A stretch of 20,000 nt of DNA, from the IMG/VR virus record IMGVR_UViG_3300042882_001870. One strand, written 5' to 3'. Source of the DNA: an uncultured virus (IMG/VR IMGVR_UViG_3300042882_001870). Taxonomy: Duplodnaviria > Heunggongvirae > Uroviricota > Caudoviricetes. Made by a program: the position numbers and the translations under genes. The notes under the pieces were generated by a model. It was not told where the DNA came from and searched no databases. It saw only the letters and a program-made list of their open reading frames with translations. Positions 1 to 20,000 of this stretch are shown here, piece after piece. The number at the start of each line of letters is the position of its first letter. Positions within the stretch are counted from its first letter, which is position 1.

Positions 1-870
1 GTGCACAAGGTGCTGTCGGTGCTACTGGTCCACAAGGAGTTCAAGGAGCAATCGGCGTAACAGGAGTCCAAGGAGTCCAAGGTCCACAGGGACCACAAGG
101 TGCACAAGGTGCAGTTGGTGCTACTGGAAACGCTGGAATTCAAGGAGCAGTTGGCATATCTGGATTCCAAGGTAGACAAGGAGTCCAAGGAGCGCAAGGA
201 CCACAGGGAGCACAAGGTGCTGTCGGTGCTACTGGACCCCAAGGAGTTCAAGGCGCTGCAAGTTCTATTGCAGGATTTCAAGGCAGACAAGGGTTTCAAG
301 GCGCACAAGGTCCACAGGGCGCACAAGGAGCAGTTGGTATTACTGGTCCTCAAGGAGTTCAAGGAGCAATCGGCGTAACAGGAGTCCAAGGAGTCCAAGG
401 TCCACAGGGACCACAAGGTGCACAAGGTGCAGTTGGTGCTACTGGACCACAAGGAGTTCAAGGTGCTGCAAGTTCTATTGCAGGGTTCCAAGGTCCACAA
501 GGATTTCAAGGAGCGCAAGGACCACAGGGAGCACAAGGTGCTGTCGGTGCTACTGGACCACAAGGAGTTCAAGGCGCTGCAAGTTCTATTGCAGGATTTC
601 AAGGCAGACAAGGAGTCCAAGGTCCACAAGGTCCACAGGGCGCACAAGGAGCAGTTGGCGTTACTGGACCACAAGGAGTTCAAGGTGCTGCAAGTTCTAT
701 TGCAGGATTTCAAGGCAGACAAGGAGTCCAAGGTCCACAGGGACCACAAGGTGCACAAGGTGCAGTTGGCGTTACTGGACCACAAGGAGTTCAAGGAGCA
801 GTTGGAATAGCAGGATTCCAAGGTAGACAAGGAGTCCAAGGTCCACAAGGTCCGCAGGGCGTTCAAGGGA
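1..870 (+). repeat. Coding Gly-X-Y tandem repeat array (fibre 1)
   Basis: 9-bp-period repeats with larger duplicated blocks, e.g. an exact 96-bp copy at 33-128 and 351-446. GAASSIA interruptions start at nt 252, 462, 573 and 684. Confidence 0.95.
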
Positions 871-1313
871 TATCTAATGTTTTGCAAACATCAGTAACTG
901 CGTTAGGAGTTGGAACCCCAGCAGGACCAACAGGAGAAATAAGAGCAACCGGAAACATAACTTCGTATTATTCTGACATAAGGTTAAAAGATAATATAGA
1001 ATCTATAAAAAATGCTAGTGAAAAATTATATCAATTAAATGGAATTTTTTATAAACAAAATAAGTTTGCAGAAACCTTTGGATATAAAGATTATAGCAAA
1101 CAAATAGGAGTTATAGCACAAGAAGTTCAAAAAATTATACCAGAAGCTGTTGCATTAGCACCATTTGATATTGATGAAAATCACAATAGCATCACAGGTT
1201 TAAATTTATTAACGGTTAATTATGAAAAATTAATTCCATTAATAATAGAAACTATAAAAGAACAACAAAAAGAAATAGATTTATTAATAAAAGAAATAAA
1301 ATATGGCAGCTAA
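1..1313 (+). CDS. Collagen-like fibre protein 1 with C-terminal S74 intramolecular chaperone domain (5' truncated by window)
   Basis: The frame starting at nt 3 is open through Gly-X-Y repeats ([15 protein letters not shown]...) and is continuous with track ORF 882..1313, whose TTG start is an internal codon. The C-terminus has [19 protein letters not shown]...[16 protein letters not shown]...[22 protein letters not shown], typical of the peptidase S74 chaperone plus coiled coil. Confidence 0.9.
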
Positions 1314-2985
1314 TAATAATTTCGTTGTAAAAAATGGCATATCTATAAATCTAAATGAAATAATTTCATCAGAAGGCATTTGGACTGGTCCCGCTTCAAG
1401 CTATTCCGGATCACAAGGACCACAAGGAGCACAAGGACCACAAGGCGCTCAGGGTGCTGTGGGTGCTGCTGGTCCACAAGGAGTTCAAGGAGTAGCAGGA
1501 TTCCAAGGTCCACAAGGATTTCAAGGAGCGCAAGGTCCACAAGGTCCACAAGGCGCTCAAGGGGCAGTTGGTGCTACTGGTCCACAAGGCATACAAGGGG
1601 TGGCAGGGTTCCAAGGTCCACAAGGATTCCAAGGCGCTCAAGGTCCACAAGGTCCACAAGGCGCTCAAGGCGCAGTTGGTGCTATTGGACCACAGGGCAT
1701 TCAAGGGGTAGCAGGATTTCAAGGTCCACAAGGATTTCAAGGCGCTCAAGGCGCTCAGGGTGCTGTCGGTGCTACTGGTCCTCAAGGAGTACAAGGTGCT
1801 GCAAGTTCGATTGCGGGGTTCCAAGGTCCACAAGGATTCCAAGGCGCTCAAGGTCAACAAGGACCACAAGGCGCTCAAGGCGCAGTTGGTGCTATTGGAC
1901 CACAGGGCATTCAAGGGGTAGCAGGATTTCAAGGTCCACAAGGATTTCAAGGAGCGCAAGGTCCACAAGGTCCACAAGGCGCTCAAGGGGCAGTTGGCGT
2001 TACCGGACCACAAGGAGTTCAAGGGGTGGCAGGGTTCCAAGGTCCACAAGGATTTCAAGGTGCTCAAGGCGCTCAGGGTGCTGTCGGTGCTACTGGTCCT
2101 CAAGGAGTACAAGGTGCTGCAAGTTCGATTGCGGGGTTCCAAGGTAGACAAGGATTTCAAGGCGCTCAAGGTCCACAAGGACCACAAGGCGCTCAAGGCG
2201 CTGTAGGTGCTACTGGTCCTCAAGGAGTTGCTGGAATAGCAGGATTCCAAGGTAGACAAGGATTCCAAGGCGCTCAAGGTCCACAGGGCGCTCAAGGAGC
2301 ACAAGGCGCTGTAGGTGCTACTGGTCCTCAAGGAGTTGCTGGAATAGCAGGATTCCAAGGTAGGCAAGGATTCCAAGGCGCTCAAGGTCCACAGGGAGCA
2401 CAGGGGGCAGTTGGTGTTACTGGACCGCAAGGAGTTCAAGGAGCGGCTAGTTCAATTGCAGGATTTCAAGGCAGACAAGGAGTTCAAGGTCCACAGGGTC
2501 CACAGGGAGCACAGGGGGCAGTTGGTGCTACTGGTCCTCAAGGAGTACAAGGAGCGGCTAGCAATGTGGTAACTGAAGTTACAGCACTAGGAGTTAATAC
2601 TATAGCAGGAACAACAGGAGAAATAAGAGCAACTGGACAAATTACTGCATATTATTCTGATAAAAGATTAAAACAAGTTTTAGGAAATGTTGACAATTGT
2701 TTAGAAAAGATAAGTAAAATACATGGTGTATATTACGAACAAAACGAATTAGCTAATTCATTTGGATATAAAGACTCTTCAAGACAAATAGGATTTATAG
2801 CACAAGAAATACAAGAAGTGCTACCAGAAGCAGTAAAAATTGCCCCTTTTGATTCTAATAAATATGGACATAGTATTTCTGGAGAAAAATATTTAACCGT
2901 ACTATACTCAAAAATAGTACCGTTATTAATAGAAGCATTAAAAGAACAGAAAATACAGATAGATGAACTAAAAACAAAAAATTGA
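1303..2985 (+). CDS. Collagen-like fibre protein 2 with C-terminal S74 intramolecular chaperone domain
   Basis: 560 aa. Short N-terminal peptide [16 protein letters not shown], about 384 aa of Gly-X-Y (nt 1408-2559), then YY-SDKRLK...[16 protein letters not shown]...[15 protein letters not shown]. Its start overlaps the end of the upstream gene. Confidence 0.92.
1408..2559 (+). repeat. Coding Gly-X-Y tandem repeat array (fibre 2)
   Basis: Higher-order unit of about 12 triplets ([36 protein letters not shown]) repeated with variants, plus three GAASSIA interruptions. Confidence 0.95.
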
Positions 2986-7295: not shown

Positions 7296-7745
7296 ATGCC
7301 AAAATACAATCAATCAAACGTTTCAGGAGAATTGTGGAGAAGATCTCCTCAAATAATTTGTTATAATAATTATAATCAAAATCCAGTAATACTTTTTGAT
7401 GAAGAAGATATAATAGTATTGAATAATGGAGAATTTGCATCCAATAGAATCCAGTCAAAATTACATCAAGAATTTAATTCTGATAACGCTAATACTGCAT
7501 TTGAGTTGAGAAACCCGGAAACAGAAGAATATATAGGAACATTTGCAACATACAAAGATTTATACGTATTAATGTATTCTTTATATTTTCATTTGGCAAA
7601 GGAGAGAGACAAAGGACCACAACCATATCCAAGTTGGATATGGAACGACCAAACTAATTCGTGGGATGCTCCTATCCCAAAACCGGAAGATGGACAAGAA
7701 TATTATTGGGATGAAAGTTCTCAAGAATGGGTTATCGTTGCATAA
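7296..7745 (+). CDS. Hypothetical phage protein with Trp/Pro-rich C-terminus, probably fibre-associated
   Basis: 149-aa ORF behind a late promoter. C-terminal PQPYPSWIWNDQTNSWDAPIPKPEDGQEYYWDESSQEW. Function inferred only from context. Confidence 0.65.
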   Translation: MPKYNQSNVSGELWRRSPQIICYNNYNQNPVILFDEEDIIVLNNGEFASNRIQSKLHQEFNSDNANTAFELRNPETEEYIGTFATYKDLYVLMYSLYFHLAKERDKGPQPYPSWIWNDQTNSWDAPIPKPEDGQEYYWDESSQEWVIVA

Positions 7746-11916: not shown

Positions 11917-12360
11917 ATGAGCAAATTTGATGAAAAAATGGAAAACTTTTTTGAAGTTGCTCCATCTGAACCCAACAACCTTCCAGAGAAAATTTCTTCT
12001 TCAGAACCAATACCCCATGAAACTCTAGACGTAGATTTAAAGAAAGACTACGAAACAGCCAGGGAAAATTTTCACGAATTGATTGAGGTTGGTAAAGACG
12101 CAGTACAAGATATATTAACTATCGCAAGGGAAAGCGAAAAAGGAAGGGATTTTGAAGTTGCTGCAAATTTGCTTAAAAACGTATTGGACGCAAACCAACA
12201 ATTATTAGATATACATAAAAAAGTAAGAGATATTTCTAATTACAAAAATCAAAAAGAAGAAAAAACCACAATCAATAATGCTTTATTTGTTGGTAGTACG
12301 ACAGAATTAAGCAAAATGCTCAAAGATCTAAATTCAAAAGAAAAAATTATCGAAAATTAA
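11917..12360 (+). CDS. gp16: Terminase small subunit gp16
   Basis: DYETARENFHELIE.G, FEVAANLLK, NNALFVGSTTELSKML; directly upstream of the large terminase. Confidence 0.88.
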   Translation: MSKFDEKMENFFEVAPSEPNNLPEKISSSEPIPHETLDVDLKKDYETARENFHELIEVGKDAVQDILTIARESEKGRDFEVAANLLKNVLDANQQLLDIHKKVRDISNYKNQKEEKTTINNALFVGSTTELSKMLKDLNSKEKIIEN

Positions 12361-12363
12361 ATT

Positions 12364-13251
12364 ATGATAGAGTCTTCTTATAGAGCTAATCCACAGCTCA
12401 AGCGTGAAGGAATACAAATAGAGTTTACTCAGGAGCAAGTAGAAGAATATATTAAATGCGCGTCTGATCCAATATATTTCATCCAAAATTATGTAAAAGT
12501 GGTCCATGTAGATAAAGGCGTTATTCCTTTTAATATGTGGGATTTCCAAAAAGACATGATTAAAACGTTTCACGAAAACCGTTTTAGTATTGTTAAGTGT
12601 CCTCGTCAGGTGGGAAAAACAGTTTCTTCTGTGGCGTACATTCTTTGGATGACTTTATTCAATGACGATCAAAACATAGCAATCCTAGCAAACAAAGGCG
12701 ACCTAGCAAGAGAAATTCTCGATAGATACCAACTCGCATATGAAAACTTGCCTATTTGGTTACAACAGGGAGTTAGAGTTTGGAATAAAGGTTCTATTGA
12801 ATTAGAAAACGGTTCGAAAGTATTGGCGTCTGCTACTTCTTCAAACGCCATACGTGGTGGCTCTTTCACATGTGTCTTTTTGGACGAATTTGCATTCGTT
12901 CCTTCTAATATAGCAGAAAATTTCTTCACATCTGTTTATCCAGTAATATCTTCTGGTAAAACAACTAAGATGATTATTGTTTCTACTCCAAACGGTATGA
13001 ATTTGTTTTATAAAATGTGGACTGATGCTGTATCAAAAAGAAGTGAATATAAAACTTTTAGTATCCATTGGGGAATGGTTCCCGGAAGAGACGAAAAGTT
13101 TAAAGAACAAACAATCAAGAATACTTCGCTACGGCAATGGCAACAAGAATTTGAATGCGTTCATGGAGAAACTTTAATAGAAATTTTAGACACAAAAACA
13201 AATCAAACAATATCTATACCAATAAAAGATTTTTACGAAGATTTTGTTTGA
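12364..13251 (+). CDS. gp17: Terminase large subunit gp17, N-terminal (ATPase) fragment fused to split-intein N half
   Basis: Walker A KCPRQVGKT, Walker B VFLDEFAF, coupling motif VSTPNG. The extein ends at QQEFE (aa 264), followed by the intein block-A-like CVHGETLIEI...FV*. Confidence 0.93.
   Translation: MIESSYRANPQLKREGIQIEFTQEQVEEYIKCASDPIYFIQNYVKVVHVDKGVIPFNMWDFQKDMIKTFHENRFSIVKCPRQVGKTVSSVAYILWMTLFNDDQNIAILANKGDLAREILDRYQLAYENLPIWLQQGVRVWNKGSIELENGSKVLASATSSNAIRGGSFTCVFLDEFAFVPSNIAENFFTSVYPVISSGKTTKMIIVSTPNGMNLFYKMWTDAVSKRSEYKTFSIHWGMVPGRDEKFKEQTIKNTSLRQWQQEFECVHGETLIEILDTKTNQTISIPIKDFYEDFV
13156..13248 (+). mobile_element. Split intein N-fragment (IntN, 31 aa)
   Basis: CVHGETLIEILDTKTNQTISIPIKDFYEDFV: Cys1 plus block-A pattern (CxxGxTxI ... 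IPIKDF), then a stop codon. Confidence 0.88.
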
Positions 13252-13268
13252 TTAAGACTTTTTTGCTT

Positions 13269-13276
13269 TATAAATA
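13269..13276 (+). promoter_or_regulatory. T4-type late promoter TATAAATA inside the fractured terminase locus
   Basis: Exact consensus in the 52-nt gap between the IntN stop and the HNH start. Confidence 0.72.
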
Positions 13277-13303
13277 TTATATTTTAGAAATATAGTTCAT
13301 AAT

Positions 13304-13867
13304 ATGTGCGATAATTATAGAAAAATTTGGGAAAATCGTTTTGGGAAAATCCCTTTTGATGATAACGGAAGAACTTTTGAAATACACCATATAGACGGTA
13401 ATAAGTCAAATAACGATATAAACAATTTATTGTGCGTTAGTATTCAAGAACATTATGAAATACACTATAAAAATGGAGATTATGGAGCTTGTGTTATGAT
13501 AGCAAAACGCATGTCTTTACCTCCAAATTATATTTCTGAGATACAGAAAGGTGTTAAGAGACCGAGAATAGGTGGCGTTAAAAAGGGAACCAAACCTTGG
13601 AACAAAGGTTTAACTGGATATAAATTGAATTTAACTGAAGAAGGAAAGCAAAAACAAAATCAAGCAAAACCTAGAAAAATATCAGAAGAAAATGTAAGGG
13701 TAATTATAAAAAACTATAAAGATAGAATTTTTATAGAAGACGACAGAATAGGAAAAACGCAAAAAAATGGTAAAAAATTAACATACGAAAAAGCTTTTGC
13801 AGAATATTATTCTAAAATTTATAATGTTACTGATACTAGAATTTTGCAAATAATAAAAAATGTTTAA
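13304..13867 (+). CDS. Free-standing HNH homing endonuclease
   Basis: YRKIWE...EIHHIDGNKSNNDINNLLCVSIQEHYEIH (HNH motif), basic KPWNKG (NUMOD-like) segment and a possible C-terminal helix-turn-helix. It sits between the intein halves. Confidence 0.88.
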   Translation: MCDNYRKIWENRFGKIPFDDNGRTFEIHHIDGNKSNNDINNLLCVSIQEHYEIHYKNGDYGACVMIAKRMSLPPNYISEIQKGVKRPRIGGVKKGTKPWNKGLTGYKLNLTEEGKQKQNQAKPRKISEENVRVIIKNYKDRIFIEDDRIGKTQKNGKKLTYEKAFAEYYSKIYNVTDTRILQIIKNV

Positions 13868-14174
13868 AGAAAATAATAGATATTTAATAAAAACCCCTTT
13901 AGGGTTTGAATCCTTTAAGGGTATACAAAATAAAAAAATTAATATATTATATACTTTTATTTTTGAAGACGGGGAATCAATAAAGTGTTCTGGAGGTCAC
14001 AAATTTTTAACTGACATCGGATTTTTAGAAGCCAAAAATATAACTCTAAAAAACACGATAACAAACAAAAAAATAAAAGATATAGTAACAGAAAACGGAA
14101 TTTTTGATGTATATGAACCTATATCTGTTGGAACGTATAAAACATATTTTACTAACAACGTCATTTCTCACAAT
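13860..14174 (+). mobile_element. Split intein C-fragment (IntC, 105 aa)
   Basis: IKTPLGF, block B IKCSGGHKF, block F DVYEP, block G YFTNNVISHN followed by Cys+1 at 14175. Confidence 0.9.
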
Positions 14175-15071
14175 TGTGATTTCCTGGGTTCAACAAACAC
14201 CCTCATATCTGGCGAAAAACTGGCTACAATAGCATATAAAGAATCATTAAAAAAATATGCGGATATGATAGTTTATGAAGACCCTATAAAAGAATCTTAT
14301 GATGAGGATACTGGAGAGTTATTAACTAGAGATCATTTATACGCAATGACTGTAGACGTTTCAGAAGGTAAAAATTTAGATTATTCTGCGTTTTCTGTTT
14401 TTGACGTTTCAACTATGCCTTATAAGCAAGTTGCTGTTTATAGAAATAACGCAATACCTCCAATGTTATACCCAACTGTTCTTAAAATGTGTGCTGAATA
14501 TTATAATAACGCTCATGTATTAATTGAAGTAAATAATAATCCACAAATAGCAGACGTTTTAATTGAAGATTTAGAATATGAAAACGTATTAAAGGTTTCT
14601 TCTGGTAATAAGCGAGCACAAACATTATGTTTATACGGAGGTAGAAACGTTGCTATGGGATTAAAAATGAGCCCACTAGTTAAACGTATTGGTTGTTCTA
14701 CTCTAAAAACCCTAGTCGAAACGGATAAATTGGTTATACAAGATTTTGAAACTATATCCGAATTAACAACATTTGTGCAAGACGGTCCGTCATATAAAGC
14801 CGAAGAAGGGGCAAACGACGATCTTGCTATGACTTTGGTCATATTTGGTTGGTTGGCAACACAAAAAATGTTTAAAGAAATAGTAGATCACGACCTCAGA
14901 AAACAACTTCAGTTAGAACATTTTAACTTTTCTGAAGAAGACCAACTACCTTTGGGCGAATTAGACAACGGATTAAAATTTGAACATTTTGTAGAAGGTA
15001 ATTCCGTTTGGATAGAAACGTCTGACCCAGACCCATATAAACTTATTTTAAAGGATATGTTAGATTTTTAA
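13860..15071 (+). CDS. gp17: Split-intein C half fused to terminase large subunit gp17 C-terminal (nuclease) fragment
   Basis: aa 1-105 are intein-like and end in VISHN. The extein begins CDFLGSTNTLISG and contains RNase H-like terminase motifs (TVDVSEGKNLDYSAF, LIEVNN, GANDDLAM). Confidence 0.93.
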   Translation: MFKENNRYLIKTPLGFESFKGIQNKKINILYTFIFEDGESIKCSGGHKFLTDIGFLEAKNITLKNTITNKKIKDIVTENGIFDVYEPISVGTYKTYFTNNVISHNCDFLGSTNTLISGEKLATIAYKESLKKYADMIVYEDPIKESYDEDTGELLTRDHLYAMTVDVSEGKNLDYSAFSVFDVSTMPYKQVAVYRNNAIPPMLYPTVLKMCAEYYNNAHVLIEVNNNPQIADVLIEDLEYENVLKVSSGNKRAQTLCLYGGRNVAMGLKMSPLVKRIGCSTLKTLVETDKLVIQDFETISELTTFVQDGPSYKAEEGANDDLAMTLVIFGWLATQKMFKEIVDHDLRKQLQLEHFNFSEEDQLPLGELDNGLKFEHFVEGNSVWIETSDPDPYKLILKDMLDF

Positions 15072-15125: not shown

Positions 15126-16916
15126 ATGAGTGTTTTAAATATGTTATCCCCAGGAATTCAAGTAAACGAAGTAGATTTGACTACTATCGTTCCTGGAGTA
15201 TCTACTTCTGTAGGAGCATTCGTTGGGGAATTCAATTGGGGACCAGTTAATCAACCAGTGCTCATTTCTAACGAGACGCAATTACTATCGGTTTTTGGAA
15301 AACCCACAACAGAAACTTCAGATTCTTATGTTGCTACTTCTTTCTTTTCTTGTGCAAACTTTTTGTCTTATACAAATTCTTTGTATGTAACAAGAACTAT
15401 TAACGCAAATAGCGCATTAAACGCCTCAACAGACAGAACAGCAAATAAAATTTTAATTTCCAACGAAGACGCATACGAAAATAATTATTTAAATGCTAAT
15501 AATGAATTCTTATACGGCGACTTTGTAGCAAAATATCCCGGAAAAATTGCCAATGGACTTCAAATTTCTTTGTGCGCAAATTCTGCTGGTTTTTCTTCTT
15601 GGTCTTATAAGAACTATTTCGATAACGCTCCAGGAACATCAACTTATGTCGCAGAAACGACTGGAAATTACTCTGCCAATGACGAATTCCATATGATTGT
15701 TATCGACAGTTTGGGGAAAATGTCTGGTAAAGCTAATACAATCCTTGAAAAATTTGCATTTTTATCAAAAGCAAAAGATGCAGTAGATATTAACGGAAGA
15801 AGTTCTTATTTCAAAAACGTTTTGCTACAATCATCGAATTATTTGTATGTGTTAGACAACCCAGATTATGCAAATACAGCCAATACTTGGGGAAAACTTT
15901 CTTCAGACGTTGTTTCTTATGATTCACCCATTAACTTTAATGTGACATTAAATGGTGGGTCTGATGGTGTCGCCCCAACGACTGCAAACGTTACTTCTTC
16001 TTGGGATTTAATCAACGATAAAGATAAGTATGAAATTTCTTTGGCTTTTCTAGGCGCAGCAGCACCAAATAATGACGCGACACCAATTGTCGCGCAACAC
16101 GTATTAGACAATATTATTCTTGGAACTAGCGGCGAAACCCCAATTATCGGAAGAAAAGATTGTATGTTATTTGTATCTCCTCGCATAGGAGACGTATTAA
16201 ACGAATCAGGATTTGAAGTCGATAATATAGTAACAAACAACCTTTCTTTCTTAAACGTCTTGAATAGAAGTTCTTCTTATATGGTTGTGGATTCTGGTTG
16301 GAAGTACCAATACGACCGCTATAATAATGTTTACCGTTGGATTCCATTAAACGCAGATATTGCAGGGCTTTGCGCGTATACCGATTCTGTTGCTGATCCT
16401 TGGTATTCTCCTGCTGGATTTAATAGAGGTAAAGTTAAAAATGCAGTAAAGCTTGCTTGGAATCCTAATTTAACACAAAGAGACGAATTATATAAGAATG
16501 GAATCAATCCAGTAGTTTCTGTTACTGGTGATGGGGTTGTCCTTCTTGGAGATAAAACTCTACAAAGAAAACCTTCTGCGTTCGATAGAATTAATGTTCG
16601 TAGATTATTCATTACTCTTGAAAAATCTATTTCTAGAGCAGCAAAATTCAGCCTATTTGAATTTAACGATCCGTTCACTAGATCACAATTCGTCGCTTTA
16701 ATTGAACCATACCTACGTTCAGTACAAGCAAGAAGGGGTATTACCGCATTTAGAGTAGTTTGTGACGAAACCAATAATACTTCAGATATTATTGATAGAA
16801 ACGCTTTTGTTGGTGATATCTATATTAAACCAGCAAGAAGCATCAACTTTATCCAATTAAACTTTGTTGCAGTAAAAACTGGTGTGGACTTTAATACAGT
16901 TGTAGGACAATTCTAA
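15126..16916 (+). CDS. gp18: Tail sheath protein gp18
   Basis: LSPGIQVNEVDLT, FNWGPV, PWYSPAGFNRG, SAFDRINVRRLF, IYIKPARSINFIQLNFVA. Confidence 0.96.
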   Translation: MSVLNMLSPGIQVNEVDLTTIVPGVSTSVGAFVGEFNWGPVNQPVLISNETQLLSVFGKPTTETSDSYVATSFFSCANFLSYTNSLYVTRTINANSALNASTDRTANKILISNEDAYENNYLNANNEFLYGDFVAKYPGKIANGLQISLCANSAGFSSWSYKNYFDNAPGTSTYVAETTGNYSANDEFHMIVIDSLGKMSGKANTILEKFAFLSKAKDAVDINGRSSYFKNVLLQSSNYLYVLDNPDYANTANTWGKLSSDVVSYDSPINFNVTLNGGSDGVAPTTANVTSSWDLINDKDKYEISLAFLGAAAPNNDATPIVAQHVLDNIILGTSGETPIIGRKDCMLFVSPRIGDVLNESGFEVDNIVTNNLSFLNVLNRSSSYMVVDSGWKYQYDRYNNVYRWIPLNADIAGLCAYTDSVADPWYSPAGFNRGKVKNAVKLAWNPNLTQRDELYKNGINPVVSVTGDGVVLLGDKTLQRKPSAFDRINVRRLFITLEKSISRAAKFSLFEFNDPFTRSQFVALIEPYLRSVQARRGITAFRVVCDETNNTSDIIDRNAFVGDIYIKPARSINFIQLNFVAVKTGVDFNTVVGQF

Positions 16917-19313: not shown

Positions 19314-20000
19314 ATGAACGAGAATATTTCTAAAGCGGTAGATTTCGCATTTTCTAATAACATTAGCGAAATGGGAAAAGAAATCGAAAACGCTCTAATG
19401 CAGAAAGTTTCTGACGCTCTTGCTGGTAAAAGAATCGAAGTTGCACAAACCCTAGTTCAAAACGAAAGAGAAGAACCAGTTGACGACTTTGAAGACGAAG
19501 ATTTTGAAGAATCTGAATCCATCCAAGAACTAAGCAAAGAAACCCTTCAAAGTTACGTTAATAAACGTCAATGGGATATGGGTGCTAATGAAAAGGCGCA
19601 AAAGAAAATGGATACTGGTTTAGCTAGAGCTGAAACTAAACTAAAAGGCGACCAACACAAACTTGATAAAAATAAAAATGGTAAATTAGATTCTCAAGAT
19701 TTCAAGTTATTAAGAAAAGAATCAGAAGAACTAGAAGAAAAGTTATCTGTTTCCGATGGAGCCGAAAAGTGGATCCACGATTTTGTACATTCTGACAACC
19801 CCAAGTTTGAAGGTAAATCCAAGAAAGAAAGAATTCAAATGGCTCTTGGTGCCTTTTATGCCGCTAAGAAAGCGACCAACGAAGAAGTTGAAGAACTTGA
19901 CGAAATCTCCTCAAAATTAGCGTATAGAGCTGCAAGTAAGAGAGGGGAACGAATGTCCAAAGCATGGCGAGCTAATGATATGGACACTTTCGAAAAAGAA
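19314..20000 (+). CDS. Prohead core protein gp67-like N-terminus with long modular extension (3' truncated by window)
   Basis: Not in the ORF track because it runs off the end. AGGAG RBS, ATG 19314, open for 229 codons: MNENISKAVDFAFSNNISEMGKEIENALMQKVSDALAGKRIEVAQTL, an acidic tract, then further modules. Its position after the portal matches gp67. Confidence 0.75.
   Translation, partial: MNENISKAVDFAFSNNISEMGKEIENALMQKVSDALAGKRIEVAQTLVQNEREEPVDDFEDEDFEESESIQELSKETLQSYVNKRQWDMGANEKAQKKMDTGLARAETKLKGDQHKLDKNKNGKLDSQDFKLLRKESEELEEKLSVSDGAEKWIHDFVHSDNPKFEGKSKKERIQMALGAFYAAKKATNEEVEELDEISSKLAYRAASKRGERMSKAWRANDMDTFEKE

What the first reader, a model, noticed from the sequence alone, without database searches (positions are those of the whole stretch)
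12364..15071. Fractured terminase gene rejoined by an atypically split intein, with a free-standing HNH gene between the halves
Seen: gene 1 ends QQEFE|CVHGETLIEI...FV* (31-aa IntN) and gene 2 begins with 105 aa ending VISHN|CDFLGS. Removing both gives QEFE-CDFLGS, the conserved gp17 segment, in a 264+298=562-aa terminase. The break falls between the ATPase motifs and the nuclease motifs. By residue count IntN is net acidic (about -4) and IntC net basic (about +3). Established: short-N/long-C split inteins in T4-like TerL genes are a rare but known class (GOS-TerL, AceL-TerL), valued for protein semisynthesis because IntN is short enough to synthesise. Inference: an essential packaging motor is assembled by protein trans-splicing, and this may be a new, possibly orthogonal member. 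The block B motif is SxxH (CSGGH) rather than the usual TxxH.
Basis: partly seen in the sequence, partly recalled or inferred. Interest (0 to 1): 0.88.

Follow-up and report, generated by a model that had tools for sequence, protein, structure and literature searches.

The report
Split-intein terminase gene with HNH insert
An uncultured T4-like lake phage encodes its DNA-packaging motor as two genes, which the short and long halves of a split self-splicing protein element should stitch together, with a selfish HNH nuclease gene in between; this is real, but it is a further member of an already described intein family.

Summary
terL (gp17-type) is encoded as TerL-N(264 aa)+IntN(31 aa) at 12364-13251 and IntC(105 aa)+TerL-C(298 aa) at 13860-15071. 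A free-standing HNH gene lies between them at 13304-13867.

- **Junction.** The break is exact against an uninterrupted cyanophage TerL: EFE|C...SHN|C.
- **Family.** IntC matches PDB 6dsl_B "CatC" at E 4.5e-15. A profile of IntN and six relatives matches 6dsl_A "CatN" at E 2.9e-5. Cat is the consensus of the AceL-TerL/GOS-TerL atypically split inteins, so this is that family.
- **Binding.** A complex prediction passed (0.73; best of 3 controls 0.00), possibly from memory of 6dsl.
- **Not an artefact.** Seven other IMG/VR contigs and contigs of four public runs carry the same stop and frames.
- **Relatives.** They show the full set of states: empty site, contiguous 144-aa mini-intein at the same site, split with HNH, and split with only an HNH remnant.
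The SxxH block B is the family norm (26 of 26). The family is not rare (524 clusters at 50% identity).

The layout is the "fractured gene" of Dassa et al. 2009, and this scan has noted split-intein terminases with HNH genes before on other DNA. Verdict: a new member of a known kind. Splicing itself is untested.

The parts
11917..12360 (+). Small terminase subunit gene (gp16-like); context showing that the fractured gene sits in the canonical gp17 position
   Evidence: phrog_445 terminase small subunit, E 5e-39. Upstream lie head-tail adaptor, head closure and sheath stabilizer genes; downstream lie sheath, tube and portal genes.
12364..13155 (+). TerL N-extein, 264 aa (ATPase part: GKT at residue 84, LDEF at 173, STPNG at 207)
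   Evidence: PF03237 E 4.1e-23. 60% identical to S-IOM18 TerL residues 7-266. Aligns to T4 gp17 chains 3ezk/2o0h, E about 1e-63. Motif positions.
13156..13251 (+). IntN, 31 aa (CVHGETLIEILDTKTNQTISIPIKDFYEDFV), followed by the stop codon at 13249-13251
   Evidence: In frame with the N-extein. Relatives have 30-31 aa with C1, G4 and T6 invariant in 7 of 7. The profile hits 6dsl_A 'CatN' at E 2.9e-5. Net charge -4.
13252..13303 (+). 52-nt spacer holding a T4-late-promoter-like TATAAATA at 13269-13276
   Evidence: The motif occurs 10 times in the window against 3.23 expected; 0 of 200 shuffles reach 10. It lies 35 nt before the HNH start. It is present at the same place in 5 of 7 related loci printed: L013, L014, L017, L018 and L072.
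13304..13867 (+). Free-standing HNH homing-endonuclease gene, 187 aa
   Evidence: PF13392 HNH_3 E 1.2e-11. phrog_12324 'intron-like DNA endonuclease' E 2.6e-27. Homologs (31-64% id) sit between the intein halves in L013, L014, L016-L020, L072, L086 and L088. pN<pS in 6 of 6 pairs.
13860..14174 (+). IntC, 105 aa (block B C43-S44-G-G-H47, block F V-Y-E86-P, block G S-H104-N105); its ATG overlaps the HNH stop by 8 nt
   Evidence: 6dsl_B 'CatC' E 4.5e-15 over residues 1-109; Spl DnaX mini-intein E 8.5e-4. S44, H47, H104 and N105 are invariant in 26 of 26. Net charge +3.
14175..15071 (+). TerL C-extein, 298 aa, starting with Cys+1 (CDFLGS...); carries the RNaseH-like nuclease domain
   Evidence: PF17289 E 9.5e-7. 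Aligns to S-IOM18 TerL from C266 and to the RB49/T4 gp17 nuclease domain 3c6a/3ezk, E 3e-36.

Best explanation
This is a 'fractured gene'. The gp17-type large terminase gene of an uncultured T4-like freshwater myovirus is broken inside a class-1 mini-intein by a free-standing HNH homing-endonuclease gene.

Gene 1 makes the ATPase part of TerL ending in a 31-aa IntN. Gene 3 makes a 105-aa IntC followed by the hinge and nuclease part. The short, acidic IntN docks into the nearly complete, basic IntC to finish the HINT fold.

Splicing then follows the usual class-1 route. Cys1 makes the thioester, Cys+1 takes over the N-extein, Asn105 cyclises, and an S-to-N shift leaves a seamless 562-aa TerL reading ...QQEFE-CDFLGS....

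The HNH enzyme most likely cuts intein-less terL alleles in co-infecting relatives and so spreads the whole cassette (IntN end, promoter, HNH, IntC start). The cassette carries its own late-promoter-like TATAAATA. The terL-C start overlaps the HNH stop, so the C-half is probably made from the late HNH transcript as well as from read-through.

Shown here: the ORFs, the exact junction, homology of both halves to the solved Cat intein, conservation of catalytic residues, reproducible assembly, and the allelic series in relatives. Inferred: that splicing happens, that the HNH is an active homing enzyme, and how the genes are transcribed.
For: (1) Anatomy and exact junction.

(2) Both halves are homologous to the two chains of the solved atypically split consensus intein. 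IntC matches 6dsl_B CatC at E 4.5e-15 over 1-109. The IntN profile matches 6dsl_A CatN at E 2.9e-5 and is the only hit below E 0.2.

(3) Catalytic set. Cys1 is invariant in 7 of 7 IntN sequences. Block B Ser/His, the penultimate His and the terminal Asn are invariant in 26 of 26, and the +1 residue is a nucleophile in 26 of 26 (C in 5, T in 21).

(4) Complex prediction: score 0.73, best of 3 controls 0.00. That mark was reached by 116 of 157 solved complexes and 2 of 215 mismatched pairs. The runs agree in at least 87% of contacts and partner pLDDT is at least 72. Contacts put residues 265-268 against block B (42-43) and block F (84-85), and 272-277 against strand 8-11. A like complex (6dsl) is solved, so this shows likeness and may be from memory.

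(5) Selection: pN<pS in every pair. IntC dN/dS is 0.15-0.28 in 7 of 10 pairs (3 saturated), HNH 0.17-0.40 in 6 of 6, and IntN 0.09-0.42 in 10 of 10.

(6) The same layout, with a related HNH, occurs in 10 diverged loci. L016 keeps both intact intein halves around a 63-aa HNH remnant.

(7) A contiguous 144-aa mini-intein sits at the same EFE|C site in the full-length TerL P0055. The nearest TerL relatives, L011 and L015, have the empty site.

(8) Reproducible DNA.

(9) No RNA-intron signature.

(10) The layout matches Dassa et al. 2009 as they describe it: host-N+IntN, a 27-51-nt spacer, the endonuclease gene, then IntC+host-C on one strand. That paper includes one gp17 terminase locus 'fractured at an unusual point' with a long C part (PMC2677866, passages read).
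Against: - No experiment and no RNA or protein data. No RNA run holding the stretch was listed, so expression and splicing are inferred.
- The block F acidic residue is Glu86 here and in the four nearest relatives, where 21 of 26 members and CatC have Asp. From recall, this Asp helps coordinate the splicing steps in class-1 inteins, so the rate could differ.
- IntN alone found no solved structure. Only the 7-sequence profile did.
- The record is a 23.9-kb fragment estimated 14% complete, so a second, intact terL elsewhere in the genome cannot be excluded.
- The complex pass may reflect memory of 6dsl.
- dS is near saturation in most pairs, so the ratios are rough.
Confidence: 0.88

Rival explanations
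1. The two TerL halves work without being ligated. The intein halves serve only as a tight non-covalent clamp or have lost splicing, as the HNH-split NrdA of phage Aeh1 works as two chains.
For: Fractured genes without splicing exist: Aeh1 nrdA split by an HNH gene, cited in PMC2677866 (passage read). The block F Asp is replaced by Glu in this subclade, 5 of 26. The break lies at the ATPase/nuclease domain boundary, where two chains might still cooperate.
Against: Every residue needed only for chemistry is invariant across members down to 44% identity: Cys1, block B His, the penultimate His, the terminal Asn and a +1 nucleophile. A mere clamp would not hold these. Per a review (PMC11766414, passages read), the family's characterised members AceL-TerL, GOS-TerL and Cat splice in vitro.
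Confidence: 0.06
2. The locus is a dead terminase gene in a defective or decaying phage, inactivated by HNH insertion.
For: Only 14% of the genome is on the record. There is no expression evidence.
Against: All three ORFs are intact and near-identical in 7 other contigs and in contigs of 4 runs at word depths 9.7-61. 20 runs of 20 studies hold the stretch, of which 11 may be the source. pN<pS in exteins, intein and HNH. The gene sits in an otherwise intact gp13-gp20-like structural block. Diverged phages keep the same layout.
Confidence: 0.03
3. The insert is removed at RNA level (a group I intron with an HNH ORF), or the stop and frame changes are sequencing or assembly artefacts.
For: HNH genes often ride in phage group I introns. 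phrog_12324 is named 'intron-like DNA endonuclease'.
Against: No Rfam family matched at E<=1 other than a chance miRNA match in 12900-14400. The flanks of the insert are protein-coding intein halves that match CatN and CatC. The same sequence is found in independent assemblies with no joined form.
Confidence: 0.02

Closest known systems
AceL-TerL, GOS-TerL and their consensus Cat (atypically split TerL inteins; PDB 6dsl; Thiel 2014, Bachmann & Mootz 2015, Stevens 2018, seen only as cited in the review PMC11766414)
   Same: Host protein is a T4-type TerL. IntN is short: 31 aa here against 25, 37 and 30. IntC is long: 105 aa here against 104, 115 and 104 (table in PMC11766414). Cys1/Cys+1 as in AceL-TerL and Cat. 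Block B is C-S-x-x-H. Both halves are homologous in sequence to CatN and CatC.
   Different: By my count's alignment, only about 37% of aligned IntC positions (40 of 109) are identical to CatC. Block F has Glu where Cat has Asp. The +2 residue is Asp, not Glu. The full natural locus is seen here, with the HNH gene, its promoter-like motif and the overlap. I could not read the primary papers, so identity to AceL-TerL and GOS-TerL themselves is not measured.
Fractured genes of Dassa, London, Stoddard, Schueler-Furman & Pietrokovski 2009 (PMC2677866)
   Same: Same layout: host-N+IntN, a short spacer (27-51 nt there, 52 nt here), a free-standing endonuclease gene, then IntC+host-C on one strand with overlapping frames. 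That paper includes one gp17 terminase locus broken 'at an unusual point' with a 122-residue C part.
   Different: Their endonucleases were GIY-YIG or Vsr-like, and they only predicted that HNH genes could fracture genes. Here the endonuclease is HNH. They marked hairpins upstream of the endonuclease genes; none stands out here (z +1.38).
Contiguous mini-intein at the same TerL site (P0055, 707-aa metagenomic TerL)
   Same: Same insertion point (QEFE|C...SHN|CEFLGS). The N-terminal 28 residues align with IntN and residues 302-409 with IntC. The exteins are close to the window's.
   Different: It is one polypeptide with a 144-aa intein and no endonuclease. About 9 linker residues sit where the window has stop, spacer, HNH and start. 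Its IntC part is only 39% identical.
Split PolB intein with an HNH gene in Pseudomonas jumbo phage MIJ3 (PMC6892783)
   Same: A split intein with a free-standing HNH homing-endonuclease gene between the two host gene parts in a phage (passage read).
   Different: Different host protein (PolB). The split is conventional, with blocks A, N2, B and N4 all in the N part.
Aeh1 nrdA split by an HNH gene (Edgell and co-workers, as cited in PMC2677866)
   Same: An essential T-even-type phage gene is split by an HNH homing-endonuclease gene under late control (passage read).
   Different: There is no intein; the two chains assemble non-covalently.

Membership tests
Atypically split TerL inteins (AceL-TerL / GOS-TerL / Cat) | Sequence homology of the long C-fragment to the family | tested here: met
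   IntC against 6dsl_B 'Consensus engineered intein CatC': E 4.5e-15, residues 1-109 to 9-116.
Atypically split TerL inteins (AceL-TerL / GOS-TerL / Cat) | Sequence homology of the short N-fragment to the family | tested here: met
   The profile of 7 IntN sequences hits 6dsl_A 'CatN' at E 2.9e-5, with the next hit at E 0.21. The single sequence found nothing.
Atypically split TerL inteins (AceL-TerL / GOS-TerL / Cat) | Split near the N-terminus: IntN about 25-37 aa holding block A only, IntC about 104-115 aa holding blocks B, F and G | tested here: met
   31 aa and 105 aa. Block B C-S-G-G-H lies at IntC residues 43-47. Family lengths come from the table in PMC11766414.
Atypically split TerL inteins (AceL-TerL / GOS-TerL / Cat) | Host is a T4-type large terminase, insertion before a Cys followed by an acidic residue | tested here: met
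   PF03237 and PF17289 on the exteins. EFE|C(D/E)FLGS junction. CatC in 6dsl carries C-E after the intein. The native AceL and GOS junctions could not be read.
Atypically split TerL inteins (AceL-TerL / GOS-TerL / Cat) | Protein trans-splicing activity | not testable with these tools
   Only a complex prediction was possible: 0.73 against 0.00 for the best control, possibly from memory of 6dsl.
Class 1 intein (HINT domain) | Cys/Ser1, block B (T/S)xxH, block F acidic residue, block G His-Asn, and a +1 Cys/Ser/Thr | tested here: met
   C1; S44 and H47; E86 (Asp in 21 of 26 relatives, Glu in 5); H104-N105; C+1. The Glu is a conservative departure. The list of defining residues is recalled and agrees with PMC2677866.
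Fractured gene (Dassa et al. 2009) | Host-N+IntN, a short spacer, a free-standing endonuclease gene, then IntC+host-C, all on one strand | tested here: met
   12364-13251, a 52-nt spacer, 13304-13867, 13860-15071, all on the + strand. Definition read.
HNH homing endonuclease | HNH catalytic motif | tested here: met
   PF13392 HNH_3 E 1.2e-11 on residues 6-50; phrog_12324 E 2.6e-27.
HNH homing endonuclease | Sporadic presence at one site among related genomes, with empty target alleles | tested here: met
   Of the 79 loci other than this phage's own, 10 carry the cassette at this site. In 65 the N-extein runs straight into the C-extein. 2 are unbroken here but broken elsewhere, and 2 are too short to tell. 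L016 holds only a remnant, and L032 has a homolog (49% id) just upstream of an unbroken terL.
HNH homing endonuclease | Cleavage of the intein-less allele | not testable with these tools
DNA identity to the nearest empty allele, L011, is 70-76% throughout.

The most novel reading that the evidence does not exclude
This subclade (Cys1/Cys+1, block F Glu instead of Asp, +2 Asp, about 37% identical to CatC) would be a functionally distinct natural short-IntN split intein that does not cross-react with AceL-TerL, GOS-TerL or Cat, and so a further orthogonal tool for semisynthesis.

Its phage group holds the complete evolutionary series in one gene: empty site, contiguous mini-intein, HNH-fractured, and HNH-decayed. 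It also has a second atypically split site just before Walker B. That would make it the best natural system to test the gene-fracture model at an atypical split point, and to ask whether the cassette's own late promoter times assembly of the packaging motor.
Probability: 0.25. Interest if true: 0.5.

Novelty: new member of a known kind. Interest (0 to 1): 0.3.

Why it matters
Short-IntN split inteins are valued because a roughly 30-residue IntN can be made by peptide synthesis. Only a few natural ones are characterised: AceL-TerL, GOS-TerL, PolB16 OarG and the engineered Cat (PMC11766414 and PMC10189870, passages read).

This window adds a complete natural locus of a diverged member, with its endonuclease and expression signals. 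The relatives show that the family is large, and that one phage gene carries all stages of the intein/homing-endonuclease life cycle.

For phage biology the lesson is already established: an essential packaging motor can depend on protein trans-splicing.

Tried and rejected
- **Group I intron or other RNA family in 12900-14400:** only a chance miRNA match at E 0.91.
- **Hairpin upstream of the HNH gene, as drawn by Dassa et al.:** 13240-13330 folds no better than shuffles (z +1.38). The terL-C start region also shows nothing (z +0.40).
- **Sigma-70 and terminator scan:** 19 promoter-like sites against 16.2 expected and 1 terminator-like site against 1.5 expected; uninformative.
- **NCBIfam:** nothing for the HNH gene or gene 3.
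- **HNH against solved structures by sequence:** no meaningful hit.
- **IntN alone against the PDB:** no hit; the profile was needed.
- **Co-conversion or recombination tract around the cassette:** DNA identity to the nearest empty alleles, L011 and L015, is flat at 66-76% across terS, terL and the flanks, so nothing can be said.
- **RNA evidence:** no RNA holder was listed.
- **Primary papers** on Cat, GOS-TerL and the 2017 PNAS paper are not held. Comparison with AceL-TerL and GOS-TerL themselves therefore rests on a review and on PDB 6dsl.
- **Earlier notes of this scan on this genome:** none. A look-up by sequence gave an unrelated note.
- **Synonymous divergence of the cassette.** In several pairs it is lower than that of the exteins. 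For win-L017, pS is 0.51 for IntN, 0.51 for HNH and 0.70 for IntC, against 0.78 and 0.80 for the exteins. This would fit later horizontal spread, but dS is near saturation and composition may differ, so I do not count it as evidence.
Full report
**What is in the sequence**

The window lies in a 23,888-bp IMG/VR virus record estimated 14% complete. Its genes follow T4 order: head-tail adaptor, head closure, sheath stabilizer, small terminase, [the finding], tail sheath, tail tube, portal.

Between the small terminase gene (11917-12360) and the sheath gene (15126-16916) there are three same-strand ORFs in three different frames:
- 12364-13251, 295 aa.
- 13304-13867, 187 aa.
- 13860-15071, 403 aa.

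Pfam assigns them as follows:
- First ORF: Terminase_6N on residues 80-269, E 4.1e-23.
- Second ORF: HNH_3, E 1.2e-11.
- Third ORF: Terminase_6C, E 9.5e-7, plus a sub-threshold Intein_splicing hit.

PHROGs agrees: terminase large subunit at E 8.8e-67, and 'intron-like DNA endonuclease' at E 2.6e-27.

**The junction**

I used BLASTP against the uninterrupted 549-aa TerL of Synechococcus phage S-IOM18 (L001). ORF 1 aligns up to ...VEFE(265). ORF 3 aligns from C266-EFLGS. The 31 residues after QQEFE in ORF 1 (CVHGE...EDFV, 13156-13248) and the first 105 residues of ORF 3 (MFKEN...VISHN, 13860-14174) are therefore insertions. They are flanked exactly by the host residues, with Cys at +1 (14175). 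The exteins add up to 264 + 298 = 562 aa.

Against solved T4 gp17 chains:
- The N-extein covers the ATPase domain up to about chain position 350-353 of 3ezk.
- The C-extein covers the nuclease domain.

**Is it an intein, and which one?**

- IntC hits PDB 6dsl_B, 'Consensus engineered intein CatC', at E 4.5e-15 over its whole length. The next hits are ordinary mini-inteins: Spl DnaX at E 8.5e-4, then DnaB and gp41-1 weakly.
- IntN alone is too short to find anything.
- A profile of IntN with six homologs from related loci (A2) hits 6dsl_A, 'CatN', at E 2.9e-5. The next hit is at E 0.21.
- According to a review (PMC11766414, passages read), Cat is the consensus of the atypically split TerL inteins AceL-TerL (IntN 25, IntC 104 aa) and GOS-TerL (37, 115).

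The window's 31/105 split matches that family in sequence, in host protein and in split point.

By my count's alignment, about 40 of 109 aligned positions are identical to CatC. This is a diverged member.

**Catalytic residues and relatives**

A word-indexed search with IntC found 27 proteins, all of them IntC+TerL-C of 256-407 aa. In the alignment of 26 of them:
- C43-S44-G45-x-H47 (block B), H104 and N105 are invariant.
- The +1 residue is Cys in 5 (the window and its four nearest relatives) and Thr in 21.
- The block F acidic residue is Glu in the same 5 and Asp in 21.

CatC has CSDNH. The Glu in block F is the one local departure.

IntN pieces from seven loci are 30-31 aa, with C1, G4 and T6 invariant. 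Net charges are -4 for IntN and +3 for IntC.

**Do the halves fit together?**

A complex prediction used residues 250-295 of ORF 1 and residues 1-120 of ORF 3, the latter with alignment A1. It scored 0.73, against 0.00 for the best of 3 controls. That mark was reached by 116 of 157 solved complexes and 2 of 215 mismatched pairs. The runs agree in at least 87% of contacts, and partner pLDDT is at least 72.

The contacts place Cys1 and its neighbours against block B and block F, and IntN residues 272-277 beside IntC strand 8-11. A like complex (6dsl) is solved, so the pass shows likeness and may be from memory. It does not show that this copy binds.

**Artefact or pseudogene?**

- The 3408-nt region is 99.85-100% identical, without gaps, in seven other IMG/VR contigs. 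An eighth covers its 3' part.
- Twenty public DNA runs from 20 studies, all lake or freshwater metagenomes by their labels, hold at least 96% of the sampled words. Eleven of them may be the source.
- Contigs of four of those runs cover 12900-14400 in one piece. They show one C>T at 14296, no indel in the main contig and no joined form.
- pN is below pS in every pair of loci compared, for exteins, IntN, HNH and IntC alike. dN/dS is 0.15-0.28 for IntC in the 7 of 10 pairs not saturated, and 0.17-0.40 for HNH in 6 of 6. dS is near saturation, so the ratios are rough.
- No Rfam family fits the insert.

**Allelic series in relatives**

I examined the best 80 of 583 confirmed IMG/VR loci, together with the 8 loci of this phage itself, using tblastn with the five parts. 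Among the 79 loci that are not this phage:
- **Empty site: 65 loci.** The N-extein runs straight into the C-extein in one frame. This includes the nearest TerL relatives: L011 (N-extein 91%, C-extein 71% identical) and L015 (86%, 68%).
- **Cassette at this site: 10 loci** (L013, L014, L016-L020, L072, L086, L088). Each has a related HNH gene in between (31-64% identical).
- **Too short to tell: 2 loci** (L049, L087).
- **Unbroken here but broken elsewhere: 2 loci** (L012, L031; see below).

In L016 the gap between the halves is only 174 nt. It holds a 63-aa ORF matching just the C-terminal tail of the HNH protein, while IntN (30 aa) and IntC remain intact. This is a decayed endonuclease inside a surviving split intein.

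A library-wide HMMER search with IntC gave 524 cluster representatives at E<=1e-3 and 57 at E<=1e-10. By my hand count of the 150 listed, about 106 carry the domain within their first 21 residues (split form, or a truncated gene call) and 44 carry it internally.

Pfam on 20 of these hits gave no family for 5. Of the 15 with a hit, 12 carry a terminase domain and 3 match only intein/HINT domains. Several TerLs appear to hold more than one intein-like insert: the IntC query matched 2 to 4 separate stretches in P0030, P0031, P0035, P0038 and P0054, and P0069 and P0088 also carry LAGLIDADG domains.

P0055 (707 aa) is a full-length TerL with a contiguous 144-aa mini-intein at the same site: QEFE|CVSGNTLIEI...ILSHN|CEFLGS, residues 266-409. 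Its first 28 residues align with IntN, and residues 302-409 align with IntC. The window's stop, spacer, HNH gene and start therefore replace a linker of about 9 residues in a contiguous relative.

Together these are the stages of the gene-breaking model of Dassa et al. 2009 (PMC2677866, passage read), seen here at an atypical split point.

**Expression signals (inference)**

TATAAATA is, from recall, the T4 late-promoter consensus. It occurs 10 times in the window against 3.23 expected, and 0 of 200 shuffles reach 10. Nine are on the + strand. By my arithmetic, seven lie 27-77 nt before an ORF start: the ORFs at 7296 and 8930, HNH, sheath, tube, portal, and the ORF at 19314.

One sits at 13269-13276, 35 nt before the HNH start. 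The motif is at the same place in 5 of the 7 related loci printed, and absent in L016 and L088. None precedes terL-N or terL-C.

The terL-C ATG overlaps the HNH stop by 8 nt. Relatives start at the same codon with ATG, TTG or GTG.

I infer that the HNH gene brings its own late promoter, and that terL-C is translated from that transcript as well as from read-through. No hairpin of the kind Dassa et al. describe is detectable.

**Comparison with what is known**

The layout is the 'fractured gene' of Dassa et al. 2009. That paper already lists one gp17 terminase locus from Lake Gatun 'fractured at an unusual point' with a 122-residue C part. The locus later became GOS-TerL (review). The endonucleases in that paper were GIY-YIG or Vsr-like, and HNH was only predicted as a possible fracturing agent. 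An HNH gene inside a split intein has since been reported in the PolB gene of phage MIJ3 (PMC6892783).

This scan has also noted split-intein terminases with HNH genes before on other DNA: 17 notes in at least 15 genomes. One of them is in a T4-like phage (e1-5843680). All were judged a known kind.

I could not read the primary AceL-TerL, GOS-TerL or Cat papers. Whether those loci were reported with an HNH gene therefore stays open, as does the identity of this intein to them.

**Verdict**

This is a new, diverged member of the known AceL/GOS/Cat family of atypically split TerL inteins, in a complete natural locus. Trans-splicing, HNH homing activity and orthogonality are untested. Interest is modest.

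Noticed in passing
L012:336-3380 and L031:2690-5485 (related IMG/VR loci): A second intein site in the same TerL, at GGSF(T/N)|CV just before the Walker B motif (window residue C170 of ...SFTCVFLDEF...). It is also atypically split. In L012 the N gene runs TerL(1-169)+short IntN straight into what reads to me as a GIY-YIG-type endonuclease in one 513-codon stop-to-stop frame; I ran no domain search on it. The next gene starts with an IntC-like domain ending SHN|CVFLDEF. In L031 an HNH ORF lies in another frame, while the terL frame stays open for 931 codons across it.
   Followed up: partly
L016:3817-4008: A split intein with both halves intact but only a 63-aa remnant of the HNH gene (its C-terminal tail) in a 174-nt gap. 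The endonuclease has decayed while the split intein persists.
   Followed up: partly
L032:2625-3185: A homolog of the window's HNH protein (49% identical over 191 aa) lies immediately upstream of an uninterrupted terL. The same HNH family therefore also occurs free-standing, outside an intein.
   Followed up: no
P0030, P0031, P0035, P0038, P0054, P0069, P0088 (metagenomic TerL proteins of 842-1038 aa): T4-type TerL proteins that appear to carry more than one intein-like insert. The IntC query matched 2-4 separate stretches in the first five, and P0069 and P0088 also carry LAGLIDADG domains. TerL looks like an intein hot spot in this phage group.
   Followed up: no
window 7260, 8853, 13269, 15084, 16983, 17599, 19287 (+ strand): TATAAATA motifs lie 27-77 nt upstream of ORF starts. 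There are 10 in the window against 3.2 expected, consistent with T4-type late promoters in this uncultured freshwater myovirus.
   Followed up: partly
window 3-2985: Two adjacent ORFs with strong hits to collagen-like or repeat-rich tail-fibre families (phrog_5073 E 3e-130), followed by 2OG-Fe(II) oxygenase-like and endonuclease V-like ORFs.
   Followed up: no
A1 columns about 150-165 (window C-extein residues about 38-52, KESYDEDTGELLT): A 13-residue acidic insertion early in the C-extein is shared by the window and some relatives (P0003-P0006, P0008, P0011, P0055) and absent from most other family members.
   Followed up: no
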